The notes beneath the pieces were generated by a model. The model worked only from the letters and a program-made list of their open reading frames with translations. It made no database searches and had not been told where the DNA came from. The translations under genes and the position numbers were made by a program. Shown one piece after another: positions 10,485 through 60,807 of a DNA stretch of 64,000 bases. Source of the DNA: Escherichia coli (GTDB lineage Bacteria > Pseudomonadota > Gammaproteobacteria > Enterobacterales > Enterobacteriaceae); the NCBI RefSeq assembly GCF_024223415.1, contig NZ_CP100500.1. One strand, 5' to 3'. Position 1 is the stretch's first letter; every line of letters begins with the position of its first letter.

Positions 10485-10580
10485 ATGCTGGGTAATATGA
10501 ATGTTTTTATGGCCGTACTGGGAATAATTTTATTTTCTGGTTTTCTGGCCGCGTATTTCAGCCACAAATGGGATGACTAA
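10485..10580 (+). CDS. mgtS: Small membrane protein MgtS (YneM), 31 aa
   Basis: ATG preceded by GGAGG SD; translation MLGNMNVFMAVLGIILFSGFLAAYFSHKWDD; below the 60-aa track cutoff. Confidence 0.8.
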   Translation: MLGNMNVFMAVLGIILFSGFLAAYFSHKWDD

Positions 10581-10605
10581 TGAACGGAGATAATCCCTCA
10601 CCTAA

Positions 10606-10647
10606 CCGGCCCCTTGTTACAGTTGTGTACAAGGGGCCTGATTTTTA
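10606..10647 (+). terminator. Rho-independent terminator of mgtS
   Basis: GGCCCCTTGT...ACAAGGGGCC stem followed by TGATTTTTA. Confidence 0.5.
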
Positions 10648-10656
10648 TGACGGCGA

Positions 10657-10756
10657 AAAAAAACCGCCAGTAAACCGGCGGTGAATGCTTGCATGGATAG
10701 ATTTGTGTTTTGCTTTTACGCTAACAGGCATTTTCCTGCACTGATAACGGATCGTT
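10657..10756 (-). ncRNA. mgrR: PhoP-dependent Hfq-binding sRNA MgrR (approximate ends)
   Basis: Bounded by a minus-strand terminator (ACCGCC-loop-GGCGGT plus 8 T at about 10656-10682) and a PhoP box at 10788-10804; known genomic context between mgtS and dgcZ. Confidence 0.55.
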
Positions 10757-10787
10757 GACACAGTAGCATCAGTTTTCTCAATGAATG

Positions 10788-10804
10788 TTAAACGGAGCTT
10801 AAAC
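10788..10804 (-). promoter_or_regulatory. PhoP box (direct repeat GTTTAA-N5-GTTTAA) of the mgrR promoter
   Basis: Minus strand reads GTTTAAgctccGTTTAA, matching the PhoP consensus (T/G)GTTTA-N5-(T/G)GTTTA; lies just 3' of the dgcZ stop. Confidence 0.6.
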
Positions 10805-10812
10805 TCGGTTAA

Positions 10813-11715
10813 TCACATTTTGTTCGTCAATAAACATGCAGCGATTTCTTCCGGTTTGCTTACCCTCATACATTGCCCGGTTTGCTTACCCTCATACATT
10901 GCCCGGTCTGCTCTTCCAATGACCACATCCAGAGGCTCTTCAGGAAATGCGCGACTGACACCTGCTGTCACGGTAATGTTGATATGCCCTTCAGAATGTG
11001 TGATGGCATGGTTATCGACTAACTGGCAAATTCTGACACCTGCACGACATGCTTCTTCATCATTAGCCGCTTTGACAATAATGATAAATTCTTCGCCCCC
11101 GTAGCGATAAACCGTTTCGTAATCACGCGTCCAACTGGCTAAGTAAGTTGCCAGGGTGCGTAATACTACATCGCCGATTAAATGCCCGTAGGTATCATTA
11201 ACCAATTTAAATCGGTCAATATCCAACAACATTAAATAAAGATTCAGAGGCTCAGCGTTGCGTAACTGATGATCAAAGGATTCATCAAGAACCCGACGCC
11301 CCGGCAATCCCGTCAAAACATCCATATTGCTACGGATCGTCAGTAAATAAATTTTGTAATCGGTTAATGCCGCAGTAAAAGAAAGTAACCCTTCCTGAAA
11401 GGCGTCGAAATGCGCGCCCTGCCAGTGATTTTCAACAATAGCCAGCATTAATTCCCGACCACAGTTATGCATATGTTGATGGGCAGAATCCATTAGCCGA
11501 ACGTAAGGTAATTCATCGTTATCGAGTGGCCCCAGATGATCAATCCACCGACCAAACTGGCACAGTCCATAAGAATGGTTATCCGTTATTTCTGGCTTAC
11601 TGGCATCTCTCGCGACCACGCTGTGAAACATACTCACCAGCCACTGGTAGTGGGCATCGATAGCCTTATTGAGATTTAACAAGATGGCATCAATTTCCGT
11701 TGTCTTCTTGATCAT
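10813..11715 (-). CDS. dgcZ: Diguanylate cyclase DgcZ (YdeH; CZB zinc-sensor plus GGDEF), with frameshifted C-terminus
   Basis: Recognised CZB and GGDEF sequence; start taken at MIKKTTEIDAI; last 20 residues (QCMRVSKPEEIAACLLTNKM) replace the expected GRNRCMFIDEQNVINRV because of a 26-bp tandem duplication. Confidence 0.85.
   Translation of the reverse strand: MIKKTTEIDAILLNLNKAIDAHYQWLVSMFHSVVARDASKPEITDNHSYGLCQFGRWIDHLGPLDNDELPYVRLMDSAHQHMHNCGRELMLAIVENHWQGAHFDAFQEGLLSFTAALTDYKIYLLTIRSNMDVLTGLPGRRVLDESFDHQLRNAEPLNLYLMLLDIDRFKLVNDTYGHLIGDVVLRTLATYLASWTRDYETVYRYGGEEFIIIVKAANDEEACRAGVRICQLVDNHAITHSEGHINITVTAGVSRAFPEEPLDVVIGRADRAMYEGKQTGQCMRVSKPEEIAACLLTNKM
10855..10906. repeat. Perfect 26-bp tandem duplication (2 copies of tttgcttaccctcatacattgcccgg) inside the 3' end of dgcZ
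   Basis: Read directly; unit length not divisible by 3; removing one copy restores the GGDEF C-terminal GRNR motif. Confidence 0.85.
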
Positions 11716-20152: not shown

Positions 20153-20753
20153 AATTCACAGGTGTTTTTTCCCATCCTGTGGTTTCCTTGGCGTTTTCTA
20201 GGTTTTTTCAGATAGTTGCATTTTTTTAAAAGCATCCTAAGTTCGATCTCAGTGTCTATCTGGGGCCTATTTCTGTCCCATATATGCCCCAAAAAACTCC
20301 CCAACAGATAAGTAGTTTTTTCATGGATTTACGCGTAAAATCAATAACGGCTGGAAATCATTCAATACTCGCACTATCGAAAAATTTACCAGCCAACCGC
20401 AGCACGTTCTTGCATAAGGTGTGTCTGCGGTTTTTCAACTATTCAGATACATCACTCCCATCACATTCATTCCTCCACATCAAAGGCATATAGGCTATAT
20501 CACCTTGATATTTTTCTTCTTCAGATAAAAACTGTTATCTATGTATACTTTTAAACCCAATCCGTGTAGAGTCTCTGCATAAGATAGTTTGCAGTTGCCA
20601 CTTCAGATTGCGCCATAAACCGCCTGATTTTTGCCGCCACCTGTTAGCATTCCTGTATACCTGAAACGACAATGTTTATCTACGAACTTTAAGAACACCC
20701 AAGATAAAATTGTCAACTATATCATATATAACACATTACTAATTCGAGGCTAT

Positions 20754-22173: not shown

Positions 22174-22749
22174 CTACGGCAGTGCTGGCCATTCAATATC
22201 CTGTGCAGTTGACGTATCAACACGGTTCAGCAACACCCGATACTTTTTCCAGGCTTCCAGCAATGAGGTTTCTTCCTCCGTTGCGATTTCCAGATCTACA
22301 GCATCCTGAAGTGGCGCAATATGCTCACTGGCTACCTGCATCAGGCTGTTTTTTGTTTCTTCCGCCTCCCGGATCCGGAACAGTTTTTCTGCTTCTGCAT
22401 CTTTCACCCAGGCTGTGCCGTTCCACTTCTGAAACTCCCCTTCCGGCGATAACCAGGTAACATTTTCCGGTAACGGACCGAGTTCAGAAATAAATAACGC
22501 GTCCCCTGACGCTACGTCATAAACCGTTTTACCCCGATGGTCTTCATCGAGATGCCACGATGCCTTATCACTGTTGAAAACAGCCACAAAGCCAGCAGGA
22601 ATATCTGGTGGTGCAATATCGGTACTGTTTGCTGGCAGACCTGTATGAGGCGGAATATATGCGTCACCTTCACCAATAAATTCATTAGTTCCGGCCAGCA
22701 GATTATAAATTTTTATGGTCCGTGGTTGTTCACTCATTCTGAATGCCAT
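22174..22749 (-). CDS. tfaQ: Tail fibre assembly protein (TfaQ/TfaR-like), 191 aa
   Basis: Recognised Tfa sequence; start overlaps the stop of the upstream fibre gene. Confidence 0.9.
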
Positions 22750-25247
22750 TATGCAAGCCTCACAATATAGTTAAATGCGATGTTTTTGACGGTGTTTTCC
22801 GCGTTACCAGCAGCGTTAACGGTGATGGTGTGTCCATGTGAGCCAATCGCAACGGAGTGCGTATGAGCACCAATACCGACAGTATGTGCGTGTGCACCTG
22901 CAGATGCTGCGGTGCCGGACAGTGAGTGGCTATGATTACCATCTGTACTGGTATTAGCTAACGCCCCCGTAGACATACCTACTGAGCCTTGTACACCCCA
23001 AGTATTTTGACCTGAGCTTGTATAACCATATTGATAAGTATCTTTAAAAACACTGGGGTTAAATCGACGGCCATCTCTATGGCTGTGATTACCAGCTGCA
23101 TTCGTGCTGCCACTTAAACTATGGGTATGCGCACCAGTGTTATTCGTAGATTTAGTGCCGTAATCAAACGACGATGTGGTTTTCGTCCCCAAATCCGTAC
23201 TGGATGCGCTGGCGCTGTGGGTATGCGATTTAATGCCGTCCTGTTCCTGAGACAATACGGCCCGACCACTGGCAGGTTTGCCCTTAATCGTCCAGCCACG
23301 CATATCAGGGATCACGCCTGACGGATAAGCCGCTGCAAGTTTCGGGTATGCAGATTTGTCAAAAGCCTGCCCCTGCATCAGGGCATAGCCAGACGGAACG
23401 GTATCTGATGGCCACGGGATTGGTGCGCCAGGCGGATAAAACTGCTCTGATGGCGTATAGAGTGAATAAACTGTACCGTCCGTTAACCCTTCCGGCTTAT
23501 TAGCAGAATATGCTGGTGACGTATGAATCGTCACGCTGGCATTACTGGTATAATCCCATTGAATATTTACACCAGTCGCATAATTTCCGATTGCAACGTA
23601 AATATCGTAAGTATCACCAGATGTATTAACCCAGGCAAAATTTGTAAACCCTGTCAATGTGCGCTGCCATAAAGCACCAGTAATCCCCTTCGGATTACCA
23701 TTACCTGCACGTAAAACAAGTTCAGATATACCTGCCTGTTGAGGTGACCCCACGTTAAATCCAGCGCCACCAATCAACGTAATTGAAACAACAGAACTCG
23801 CCTGTGGCATGGTTACCGTTGCTAATTTGAACCAACCAGCACCACCGCTGAATGACATTGTTGTTGAGTTAAGCGTACCAATATCTTTCGACGTCAGTGT
23901 TATATCCGCTGAAAGCGCCTTACCATTCACCTTACGGGCAGAAGGTACCCGACCATTCGCATTGTCATTAGCTGCTTTCACTGCTTTCGGTGTCGCAGCA
24001 AGCGTTTCAGATGTGCTGTTGGTTGCACTACTGAGCTGGACAATTCCTTTTTGTGCTGTCGTAGCGTCCTGTGCGGTGTATTTCCCGTTAGCCAGGTCAT
24101 ACGCGGCCTTAACGGCTTTTGGCGTTGCCGCCTGTGACTCGGAAGTGCTGTTAGTCGCACTGCTGAGCTGAACTATCCCTTTCTGTCCTGTCGTTGCATC
24201 CTGTGCGGTGTATTTCCCGTTAGCCAGGTCATACGCGGCCTTAACGGCTTTTGGCGTTGCCGCCTGTGACTCGGAAGTGCTGTTGGTCGCACTGCTGAGC
24301 TGTACTACCCCCTTTTTCGTCGTGCTCGCATCCTCAAGCGCCACGGCGGATGCAATATCCTCTGCACGTTTTGCCGCTGTCTCAGCGCGCGTTGCTGCGG
24401 ATTCTGCCGTACTTTTGCTCTGTGCTGCCGCTGCCGCACTGCCAGCAGCCTCTGTCGCCTTCGTGGATGCCGTCGTGGCGCTGCCCCTCGCTGCTGACGC
24501 CTGTCTGGTCGCCTCATCTTTTGAAGCCGACGCATCCCTGGCTGAGGAGGCAGCTTCTGACGCTTTCGTGGTCGCGGTGGATGCAGAAGTGGCGGCTGAT
24601 TGTTGTGACGCTGCCGCATTCGTTTCTGACGTTTTTGCCGCACCGGCACTGGTGGCCGCCGCGCTTTTTGAGGACTCTGCAGCGGCAGCACTTTTTAATG
24701 CTTCAGTGGCCTTTGCTGATGCCATTCCTGCGCTGGAAGACGCTGACTGAGCCGACGACGCGGCCTGTCCGGCTGACGAGCTGGCTGCGCGTGCTGAGTC
24801 TGCAGCATCAGTCGTATGGGTTGCCGCCTCACGGGCAGATGTGCCGGCATCGCTGGCTGACTTCTTTGCGGCTGCCGTGTTCTGTGCCACTGCGGACGCG
24901 TTACGCGCCACCTCTTCCACCATCAGCTCAAAACGGCGCAGTGCCTCCGGACGGGCATCATCCTCCGTCATGGCACCGAGAAAATCATTCAGCGTACCGG
25001 GTTGAGAATCTTCATACACGGTGATGGTCCCGGCATGTGACGGCGGGAATCCTTCCACCAACAGAATAACGCTGTACTGACCGTACTCAACGTCCATGCT
25101 GTAACGCCCGGCTTCATCCGGATTTTCTGAGGCCAGCGTGTTCACCACCACCGTGGTGCTGTTACGTTTTGCTTTCAGCTGGATTGTGCAGTTCTGTACC
25201 GGTTTTCCTGTGCCGTCTTTCAGTACACCTGAAATCTTTACTGCCAT
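22749..25247 (-). CDS. stf: Side tail fibre protein (Stf), about 832 aa, with three 44-aa tandem repeats
   Basis: Lambda Stf-like N-terminus ([17 protein letters not shown]); Ala/Ser-rich coiled region; C-terminal His/Gly-rich fibre tip. Confidence 0.9.
23945..24335. repeat. Three tandem copies of a 132-bp unit inside stf
   Basis: Near-identical DNA repeats with period 132 bp, encoding repeated [16 protein letters not shown](S/T)[26 protein letters not shown]. Confidence 0.8.
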
Positions 25248-60749: not shown

Positions 60750-60807
60750 TTTCTGGTGACGTTTGGCGGTATCAGTTTTACTCCGTGACTGCTCTGCCGC
60801 CCTTTTT
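60750..60807 (+). ncRNA. dicF: DicF small RNA (ftsZ translation inhibitor), with intrinsic terminator
   Basis: TTTCTGGTGACGTTTGGCGGTATCAGTTTTACTCCGTGACTGCTCTGCCGCCCTTTTT read directly; recognised DicF sequence. Confidence 0.7.

What the first reader, a model, noticed from the sequence alone, without database searches (positions are those of the whole stretch)
10855..10906. 26-bp tandem duplication frameshifts the C-terminus of diguanylate cyclase DgcZ
Two perfect adjacent copies of tttgcttaccctcatacattgcccgg sit in the last 60 nt of dgcZ. The unit length is not a multiple of 3, so the encoded tail becomes ...EGKQTGQCMRVSKPEEIAACLLTNKM. Deleting one copy in silico restores ...EGKQTGRNRCMFIDEQNVINRV, which carries the conserved GGDEF-domain C-terminal G-R-N-R motif. 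This looks like a slipped-strand mutation that may impair or alter c-di-GMP synthesis. The duplication is also about 50 bp from the PhoP box of the convergent mgrR promoter.
Basis: partly seen in the sequence, partly recalled or inferred. Interest (0 to 1): 0.75.

Follow-up and report, generated by a model that had tools for sequence, protein, structure and literature searches.

The report
Private 26-bp duplication disrupting dgcZ
One E. coli strain carries a unique 26-base tandem duplication near the end of the dgcZ gene. It shifts the reading frame and removes a conserved GTP-binding arginine, so it is an ordinary strain-specific, probably inactivating mutation and not a new biological feature.

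Summary
Window 10855-10880 and 10881-10906 are two perfect head-to-tail copies of a 26-nt unit, and this is the only such duplication in the 64 kb.

The copies lie in dgcZ on the minus strand. The frame shifts at codon 281, and 20 new residues replace the last 16, giving 300 aa instead of 296. Removing one copy restores a DgcZ protein seen on more than 1000 public contigs.

The single-copy sequence has ACCGG at both ends of the unit. That is the signature of replication slippage at a microhomology.

The junction is absent from:
- 5426 complete E. coli genomes, including relatives that are otherwise identical over 6 kb;
- the species-representative genome collection;
- the metagenome collection.

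The mutant protein is absent from about 15 billion predicted proteins.

The first residue changed, R281, aligns with PleD R446, which binds a phosphate of GTP, and it is about 91% conserved. The final beta-hairpin is also replaced. Loss or strong reduction of cyclase activity is likely but untested.

mgrR is co-directional with dgcZ, not convergent. Its PhoP box is intact, 49 bp from the duplication.

An assembly artefact cannot be excluded without reads. This is an ordinary private mutation of low interest.

The parts
10855..10880 (-). Copy 1 of the 26-nt unit (+ strand TTTGCTTACCCTCATACATTGCCCGG). On the coding strand this is the downstream copy.
10881..10906 (-). Copy 2 of the 26-nt unit, identical to copy 1. 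Relatives have only one copy.
10851..10907 (.). Whole repeated tract including the flanking microhomology (+ strand CCGG...T; coding strand ACCGG). In single-copy relatives ACCGG occurs at both ends of the unit, 26 nt apart.
10813..11715 (-). Frameshifted dgcZ ORF (300 aa from ATG; a GTG two codons upstream gives 302 aa). The CZB domain (22-89) and the GGDEF domain up to residue 280 are intact. Residues 281-300 are out-of-frame sequence.
10799..10801 (-). Original dgcZ stop codon TAA, now out of frame. It lies inside the upstream half-site of the mgrR PhoP box.
10788..10805 (-). PhoP-box-like direct repeat AGTTTA-AGCTC-CGTTTA upstream of mgrR (about -35 to -52). It is unchanged by the duplication, which ends 49 bp away.
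   Evidence: only GTTTA-N6-GTTTA match in 64 kb; position relative to the K-12 mgrR start
10656..10753 (-). mgrR small RNA, co-directional with dgcZ. Coordinates are transferred from the K-12 annotation (offset +7838). The sequence differs from K-12 at one position in the aligned stretch.
   Evidence: terminator 10682-10663 followed by a T run

Best explanation
A recent, strain-private replication-slippage event duplicated the 26 bp that lie between two ACCGG pentamers near the 3' end of dgcZ. During synthesis the nascent strand mispaired the downstream ACCGG with the upstream one and copied the intervening unit a second time. Because 26 is not a multiple of 3, translation shifts frame at codon 281. 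The protein keeps its zinc-sensing CZB domain, the GGEEF active-site loop and K277. It loses R281 (the counterpart of PleD R446, which contacts the beta/gamma phosphates of GTP), N282, R283 and the terminal beta-hairpin of the GGDEF fold, and it gains 20 unrelated residues. The most likely outcome is a DgcZ with little or no diguanylate cyclase activity, which would mean less DgcZ-dependent c-di-GMP and poly-GlcNAc. The downstream mgrR gene and its PhoP-dependent promoter are untouched. Shown here: the duplication, the frameshift, its uniqueness, the microhomology, and the residue mapping and conservation. Inferred: the slippage mechanism, the loss of activity, and that the duplication is not an assembly error.
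For: The duplication is perfect and unique in the window. Relatives that are identical over 6 kb except for these 26 bp carry one copy flanked by ACCGG (NCTC9112, GPEC1446, NCTC10444, KV7). The one-copy protein is an exact match to a DgcZ seen on more than 1000 contigs. The junction is absent from 5426 complete E. coli genomes, from species-representative genomes and from metagenome contigs. The mutant protein is absent from about 15 billion proteins. By my own calculation, a random duplication endpoint would show 5 nt or more of flanking homology only about 0.5% of the time, which argues for real slippage. The surrounding 20 kb differs from GPEC1446 by only 4 SNPs, and the one homopolymer difference is the common allele in the window, so there is no sign of an error-prone assembly. 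DgcZ K277 and R281 align with PleD K442 and R446, which bind the GTP phosphates (PMC7288161; PMC3509222); a 2025 preprint states that R446 is important for catalysis (10.1101/2025.08.22.671821). R281 is R in all 23 natural CZB-GGDEF homologues aligned and in 232 of 256 aligned GGDEF domains. The Pfam GGDEF match loses its last two model positions. AlphaFold2 models the wild-type tail as loop 279-283 plus strands 284-287 and 293-295 with pLDDT above 90. The mutant tail falls to pLDDT 53 (residues 281-290) and 37 (residues 291-300).
Against: No reads are available, so an assembly or consensus artefact is not excluded. No enzymatic data exist for this allele, and I found none for an R281 substitution in DgcZ. 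The new tail begins Q-C-M-R-V, which resembles the native C-M-F-I strand, and AlphaFold2 still draws a short strand there at low confidence, so some fold and residual activity may survive. Shigella work shows that DGC genes annotated as pseudogenes can still raise c-di-GMP (PMC11327459). AlphaFold2 is not a reliable judge of the effects of mutations.
Confidence: 0.75

Rival explanations
1. Assembly or finishing artefact. The second copy does not exist in the cell and arose when two contigs overlapping by 26 nt (for example k-1 of a k=27 de Bruijn assembly) were concatenated without trimming, or from a consensus or polishing error.
For: The allele is found nowhere else: not in 5426 genomes, in about 15 billion proteins, or in the genome and metagenome contig collections. 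The source genome itself is not among the RefSeq complete E. coli genomes searched. Untrimmed contig joins are known to produce perfect short tandem duplications (my own knowledge).
Against: The duplicated unit is bounded by a 5-nt microhomology, which is expected for slippage but occurs only about 0.5% of the time for an arbitrary overlap (my own calculation). This locus is single-copy in E. coli genomes (median 1 place per genome) and there is no repeat nearby to break a contig. The flanking 20 kb shows no indel errors relative to close relatives. A 31-nt run at offset 26 does not fit the common k=31 overlap.
Confidence: 0.15
2. The duplication is real, but the altered protein is still an active or differently regulated cyclase, so the change is neutral or a gain or alteration of function instead of inactivation.
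For: The CZB domain, the GGEEF motif, K277 and about 94% of the protein are intact, and Pfam still scores the GGDEF domain at 148.7 against 153.3 bits. The new tail Q-C-M-R-V partly mimics the native strand. Degenerate Shigella DGCs retain activity (PMC11327459).
Against: R281 is near-invariant and maps to a GTP phosphate ligand. The terminal hairpin is replaced and modelled with low confidence. No natural homologue among those aligned lacks the G-R-(N/D) turn.
Confidence: 0.15
3. A reversible switch. The duplication is a contingency-type ON/OFF state of dgcZ that the population gains and loses at high frequency.
For: Tandem duplications can revert precisely by the same slippage mechanism (established knowledge). 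Precise loss of one copy would restore the wild-type gene.
Against: No copy-number variation exists at this site in 5426 genomes. There are no two-copy alleles and no reciprocal 26-bp deletion. The site has only a 5-nt microhomology in the ground state, far from the repeat tracts of true contingency loci.
Confidence: 0.04
4. The relevant effect is on mgrR, not dgcZ: the insertion changes PhoP-dependent expression of the small RNA.
For: The duplication lies about 100 bp upstream of the mgrR start. dgcZ translation now stops 14 nt earlier, just before the PhoP box instead of inside it.
Against: The PhoP box, core promoter, mgrR body and terminator are identical to single-copy relatives. The insertion begins at about -102, outside the usual reach of a PhoP-activated promoter. 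No new promoter-like site is created.
Confidence: 0.03

Closest known systems
E. coli DgcZ (YdeH), zinc- and HOCl-sensing CZB-GGDEF diguanylate cyclase (PDB 4H54, 3TVK, 3T9O)
   Same: Residues 1-280 match the crystallised protein apart from two or three substitutions, one of them the crystal construct's engineered C52A. The gene neighbourhood is the same as in K-12: ydeE-mgtS-mgtT-mgrR-dgcZ-ydeI. The CZB zinc ligands H22, C52, H79 and H83 and the GGEEF motif are present.
   Different: The last 16 residues, including R281-N282-R283 and the terminal beta-hairpin, are replaced by 20 out-of-frame residues. No other sequenced allele shows this change.
Slipped-strand (microhomology-mediated) tandem duplications that cause frameshifts, the classical spontaneous indel class in E. 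coli (for example the lacI repeat hotspot; my own knowledge)
   Same: The copies are perfect and head to tail. The single-copy ancestor has a short direct repeat (ACCGG) at both ends of the unit. The result is a frameshift that precise loss of one copy would revert.
   Different: The event here is a single private one. There is no evidence that the site is a hotspot, because neither the duplication nor the reciprocal deletion occurs in 5426 other genomes.
Degenerate or pseudogenised diguanylate cyclase genes in Shigella and E. coli lineages (PMC11327459)
   Same: A lineage-specific lesion in one member of the redundant GGDEF gene set. In S. flexneri, dgcZ itself is deleted.
   Different: Those lesions are nonsense mutations or deletions fixed in a pathovar. 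Here the lesion is a C-terminal frameshift seen in one genome only, with nearly the whole catalytic domain retained.
Simple-sequence contingency loci (phase-variable genes)
   Same: A repeat whose copy number sets the reading frame of a gene.
   Different: There are only two copies of a long unit, with no pre-existing repeat tract and no copy-number polymorphism among strains.

Membership tests
DgcZ-type CZB-GGDEF diguanylate cyclase | N-terminal CZB domain with the 3His/1Cys zinc site | tested here: met
   Pfam CZB PF13682 matches residues 22-89. H22, C52, H79 and H83 are present and near-invariant in the homologue alignment.
DgcZ-type CZB-GGDEF diguanylate cyclase | GGDEF domain with the GG(D/E)EF active-site motif | tested here: met
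   Pfam GGDEF PF00990 matches residues 130-281, E=1.5e-43. GGEEF lies at residues 206-210.
DgcZ-type CZB-GGDEF diguanylate cyclase | Conserved Lys and Arg that bind the GTP phosphates (PleD K442 and R446) plus a complete C-terminal strand | tested here: not met
   K277 is present. R281 is replaced by Gln and everything downstream is out of frame. The Pfam match stops at model position 159 of 161.
DgcZ-type CZB-GGDEF diguanylate cyclase | c-di-GMP synthesis activity | not testable with these tools
   This needs an enzyme assay or a cellular c-di-GMP measurement.
Slipped-strand tandem duplication | Perfect head-to-tail copies, with a single copy in close relatives | tested here: met
Slipped-strand tandem duplication | A short direct repeat at both ends of the unit in the ancestral sequence | tested here: met
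   ACCGG flanks the unit in NCTC9112 and K-12. The 5-nt extension of identity is measured.
Slipped-strand tandem duplication | Physically present in the strain's DNA, not an assembly artefact | not testable with these tools
   No reads are available. Indirect arguments only.
Phase-variable contingency locus | Copy-number polymorphism of the repeat among strains or within populations | tested here: not met
   None of 5426 genomes has two copies and none has the 26-bp deletion.

The most novel reading that the evidence does not exclude
The two-copy state is a genuine, readily reversible OFF state of dgcZ (or a form with altered regulation) that this lineage uses to modulate poly-GlcNAc biofilm and adhesion, reverting by precise loss of one copy. 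Alternatively, moving the translation stop and upstream DNA measurably changes PhoP-dependent MgrR expression.
Probability: 0.05. Interest if true: 0.4.

Novelty: new member of a known kind. Interest (0 to 1): 0.12.

Why it matters
The finding matters mainly for annotating and phenotyping this one strain. dgcZ should be flagged as frameshifted and probably non-functional, which predicts less DgcZ-dependent c-di-GMP, poly-GlcNAc production and surface adhesion than in its ST-level relatives. It is a clean natural example of a microhomology-mediated duplication, and it would serve as a natural R281/C-terminal-hairpin mutant for anyone studying GGDEF catalysis. It does not reveal a new mechanism, gene or regulatory element.

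Tried and rejected
- Other carriers of the allele: I searched a 44-nt junction probe against 5426 complete E. coli genomes. The only matches were two UTAK strains over 28 nt, explained by a C-to-T SNP and not a duplication. A 30-nt junction probe found nothing in the species-representative genomes or the metagenome contigs. An exact look-up of the 300-aa and 302-aa products also found nothing.
- Reciprocal 26-bp deletion between the ACCGG repeats: none found, so the site is not a hotspot.
- Hairpin or quasi-palindrome that could have templated the event: no inverted repeats in 10780-10980.
- New promoter created at the junction: none by consensus scan.
- Contig-join artefact: considered likely to be wrong because of the flanking microhomology and the clean flanks, but it cannot be excluded.
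- Homopolymer difference at 20203-20208 as a sign of a poor assembly: rejected, because the window carries the common T6 allele.
- Literature on a 'GRNR' motif: no papers under that string. The residue's role had to be taken from the PleD K442/R446 literature instead.
- 'Convergent mgrR': rejected, because mgrR is on the same strand as dgcZ.

Full report
**Observation**

The sequence at 10855-10906 is two perfect adjacent copies of TTTGCTTACCCTCATACATTGCCCGG. The period-26 identity runs 31 nt from 10851, because the unit is preceded by CCGG and followed by T. On the coding (minus) strand the unit is therefore bounded by ACCGG. No other perfect tandem duplication with period >=10 exists in the 64 kb.

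**Gene context**

The duplication lies in the 3' part of dgcZ on the minus strand (ATG at 11715). The neighbourhood is the standard E. coli arrangement eamA-ydeE-mgtS-mgtT-mgrR-dgcZ-ydeI-ydeJ-dcp.

As sequenced, the ORF ends at TGA 10813-10815 and encodes 300 aa with the tail ...EGKQTG-QCMRVSKPEEIAACLLTNKM. Removing one copy gives a 296-aa protein ending ...EGKQTG-RNRCMFIDEQNVINRV with stop TAA at 10799-10801. That restored protein is an exact match to a DgcZ recorded on more than 1000 public contigs, including the NCTC9112 chromosome.

**How common is it**

A 201-nt probe finds the locus in 5414 of 5426 complete E. coli genomes, and all listed hits span 175 nt, meaning one copy. A 44-nt probe across the copy junction finds no full match in those genomes. 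Two UTAK strains match only 28 nt because of a C-to-T SNP.

A 30-nt junction probe is absent from the species-representative genome collection and from the metagenome contigs. The 300-aa and 302-aa products are not among about 15 billion predicted proteins.

The closest genomes (GPEC1446, NCTC9112, NCTC10444, KV7) are identical over 6 kb except for these 26 bp. Over the first 20 kb the window differs from GPEC1446 by four SNPs, the duplication and one T6/T5 homopolymer, and the window carries the common T6 allele. The duplication is therefore private to this genome and recent.

**Origin**

In the single-copy relatives the 26-bp unit sits between two ACCGG pentamers. That is the configuration expected for replication slippage or microhomology-mediated duplication (established knowledge).

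For an arbitrary tandem duplication, 5 nt or more of extra flanking identity would arise with probability of about 0.005. This is my own calculation, assuming independent bases with a 1/4 match probability. It is the main argument against an untrimmed contig join.

Other points are consistent with a real event:
- The locus is single-copy in E. coli genomes, with a median of 1 place per genome.
- There is no nearby repeat or inverted repeat.
- The flanks are free of indel errors.

Without reads the artefact remains possible. I put it at about 15%. The site is not a hotspot, because neither the duplication nor the reciprocal 26-bp deletion occurs in the other genomes.

**Consequence for the protein**

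Pfam finds the CZB domain (22-89) and the GGDEF domain in both alleles. The GGDEF match covers model positions 2-161 of 161 in the restored protein (153.3 bits) and 2-159 in the mutant (148.7 bits). The G-R-N-R motif is therefore the very end of the domain model.

I confirmed a PleD sequence against PDB chains and aligned it with DgcZ. With the +1 offset between chain index and PleD numbering, DgcZ K277 corresponds to PleD K442 and DgcZ R281 corresponds to PleD R446. These two PleD residues bind the phosphates of GTP (PMC7288161; PMC3509222). A 2025 preprint states that R446 is highly conserved and important for catalysis (10.1101/2025.08.22.671821). The frameshift starts exactly at R281.

Conservation supports the importance of this turn:
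- In an alignment of 23 natural CZB-GGDEF homologues at 30-44% identity, K277, G280 and R281 are invariant apart from the mutant row.
- Across 271 aligned GGDEF domains from the representative search, the R281 column is Arg in 232 of 256 non-gap cells and the next column is N or D in 230 of 255.

AlphaFold2 models the wild-type tail as loop 279-283 followed by strands 284-287 and 293-295 with pLDDT above 90. In the mutant the rest of the fold is unchanged, but residues 281-290 fall to pLDDT 53 and residues 291-300 to 37, with only a short low-confidence strand at 283-286. [quoted passage not shown]

I therefore infer that the allele has lost most or all cyclase activity. This is an inference, not a measurement. 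The new tail Q-C-M-R-V partly mimics the native C-M-F-I strand, and Shigella DGC genes annotated as pseudogenes can still raise c-di-GMP (PMC11327459). DgcZ-made c-di-GMP controls poly-GlcNAc-dependent biofilm (PMC8262984), so the expected phenotype is reduced DgcZ-dependent adhesion.

**mgrR**

In K-12, mgrR is annotated on the same strand as dgcZ, starting 46 nt after the dgcZ stop. Rfam STnc560 matches the minus strand at 10574-10787. The only terminator-like site is on the minus strand at 10682-10663.

The PhoP-box core GTTTA-N6-GTTTA occurs once in the window, at 10789-10804 on the minus strand. That is about -35 to -52 from the mgrR start, and it overlaps the native dgcZ stop codon. The duplication begins 49 bp further upstream, at about -102. 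The box, promoter, small-RNA body and terminator are identical to those of single-copy relatives. No new promoter-like site appears. An effect on mgrR is unlikely.

**Comparison with known things and verdict**

This is dgcZ, a well-characterised gene, carrying a classical slipped-strand frameshift. It resembles the lineage-specific decay of GGDEF genes described for Shigella. It does not meet the criterion of copy-number polymorphism that defines contingency loci.

The specific allele is new to the databases searched, but the kind of event is ordinary. Interest is 0.12. The most novel reading not excluded is a reversible OFF switch or an effect on MgrR. I give it about 5% probability, and it would be of only moderate interest if true.

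Noticed in passing
window 10788-10805 and 10799-10801 (minus strand): The native dgcZ stop codon TAA sits inside the upstream half-site of the mgrR PhoP box. In wild-type strains, ribosomes finishing dgcZ therefore run into the activator site of the next gene's promoter. In this allele they stop 14 nt earlier.
   Followed up: partly
window 10485-10684 (+) versus 10656-10753 (-): mgtS (31 aa) and the overlapping small ORF mgtT converge on mgrR. The 3' end of mgtT overlaps the mgrR terminator region in antisense.
   Followed up: no
window 20203-20208: The window has a T6 homopolymer where the closest relative GPEC1446 has T5. T6 is the common allele in other genomes, so the odd one out is GPEC1446, not the window.
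   Followed up: yes
window ~20200-64000: A lambdoid prophage occupies the Qin site and truncates ydfJ. It carries pinQ/tfaQ, tail and head genes, two cspA-type 5' UTR matches (46822-47207 and 49718-50110, minus strand), DicF (60751-60802, plus strand) and an Rfam IS009 match (22208-22406, minus strand). It is 98.7% identical to the prophage of GPEC1446, much less similar than the chromosomal flank.
   Followed up: partly
window 24013-24311: A 132-bp tandem repeat, 2.3 copies at 92% identity, lies inside the prophage tail-fibre gene. The unit length is a multiple of 3, so it keeps the reading frame.
   Followed up: no
window 44578-44613: An 8-bp unit GACAGCCT is repeated 4.4 times within the prophage. 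Its coding context was not examined.
   Followed up: no
proteins P0016, P0017, P0022, P0024, P0029: Public collections contain several E. coli DgcZ-derived proteins of odd length, for example 231 aa matching only residues 1-215 and 162 aa matching only residues 1-112. Other truncated, frameshifted or contig-cut dgcZ alleles therefore occur sporadically.
   Followed up: no
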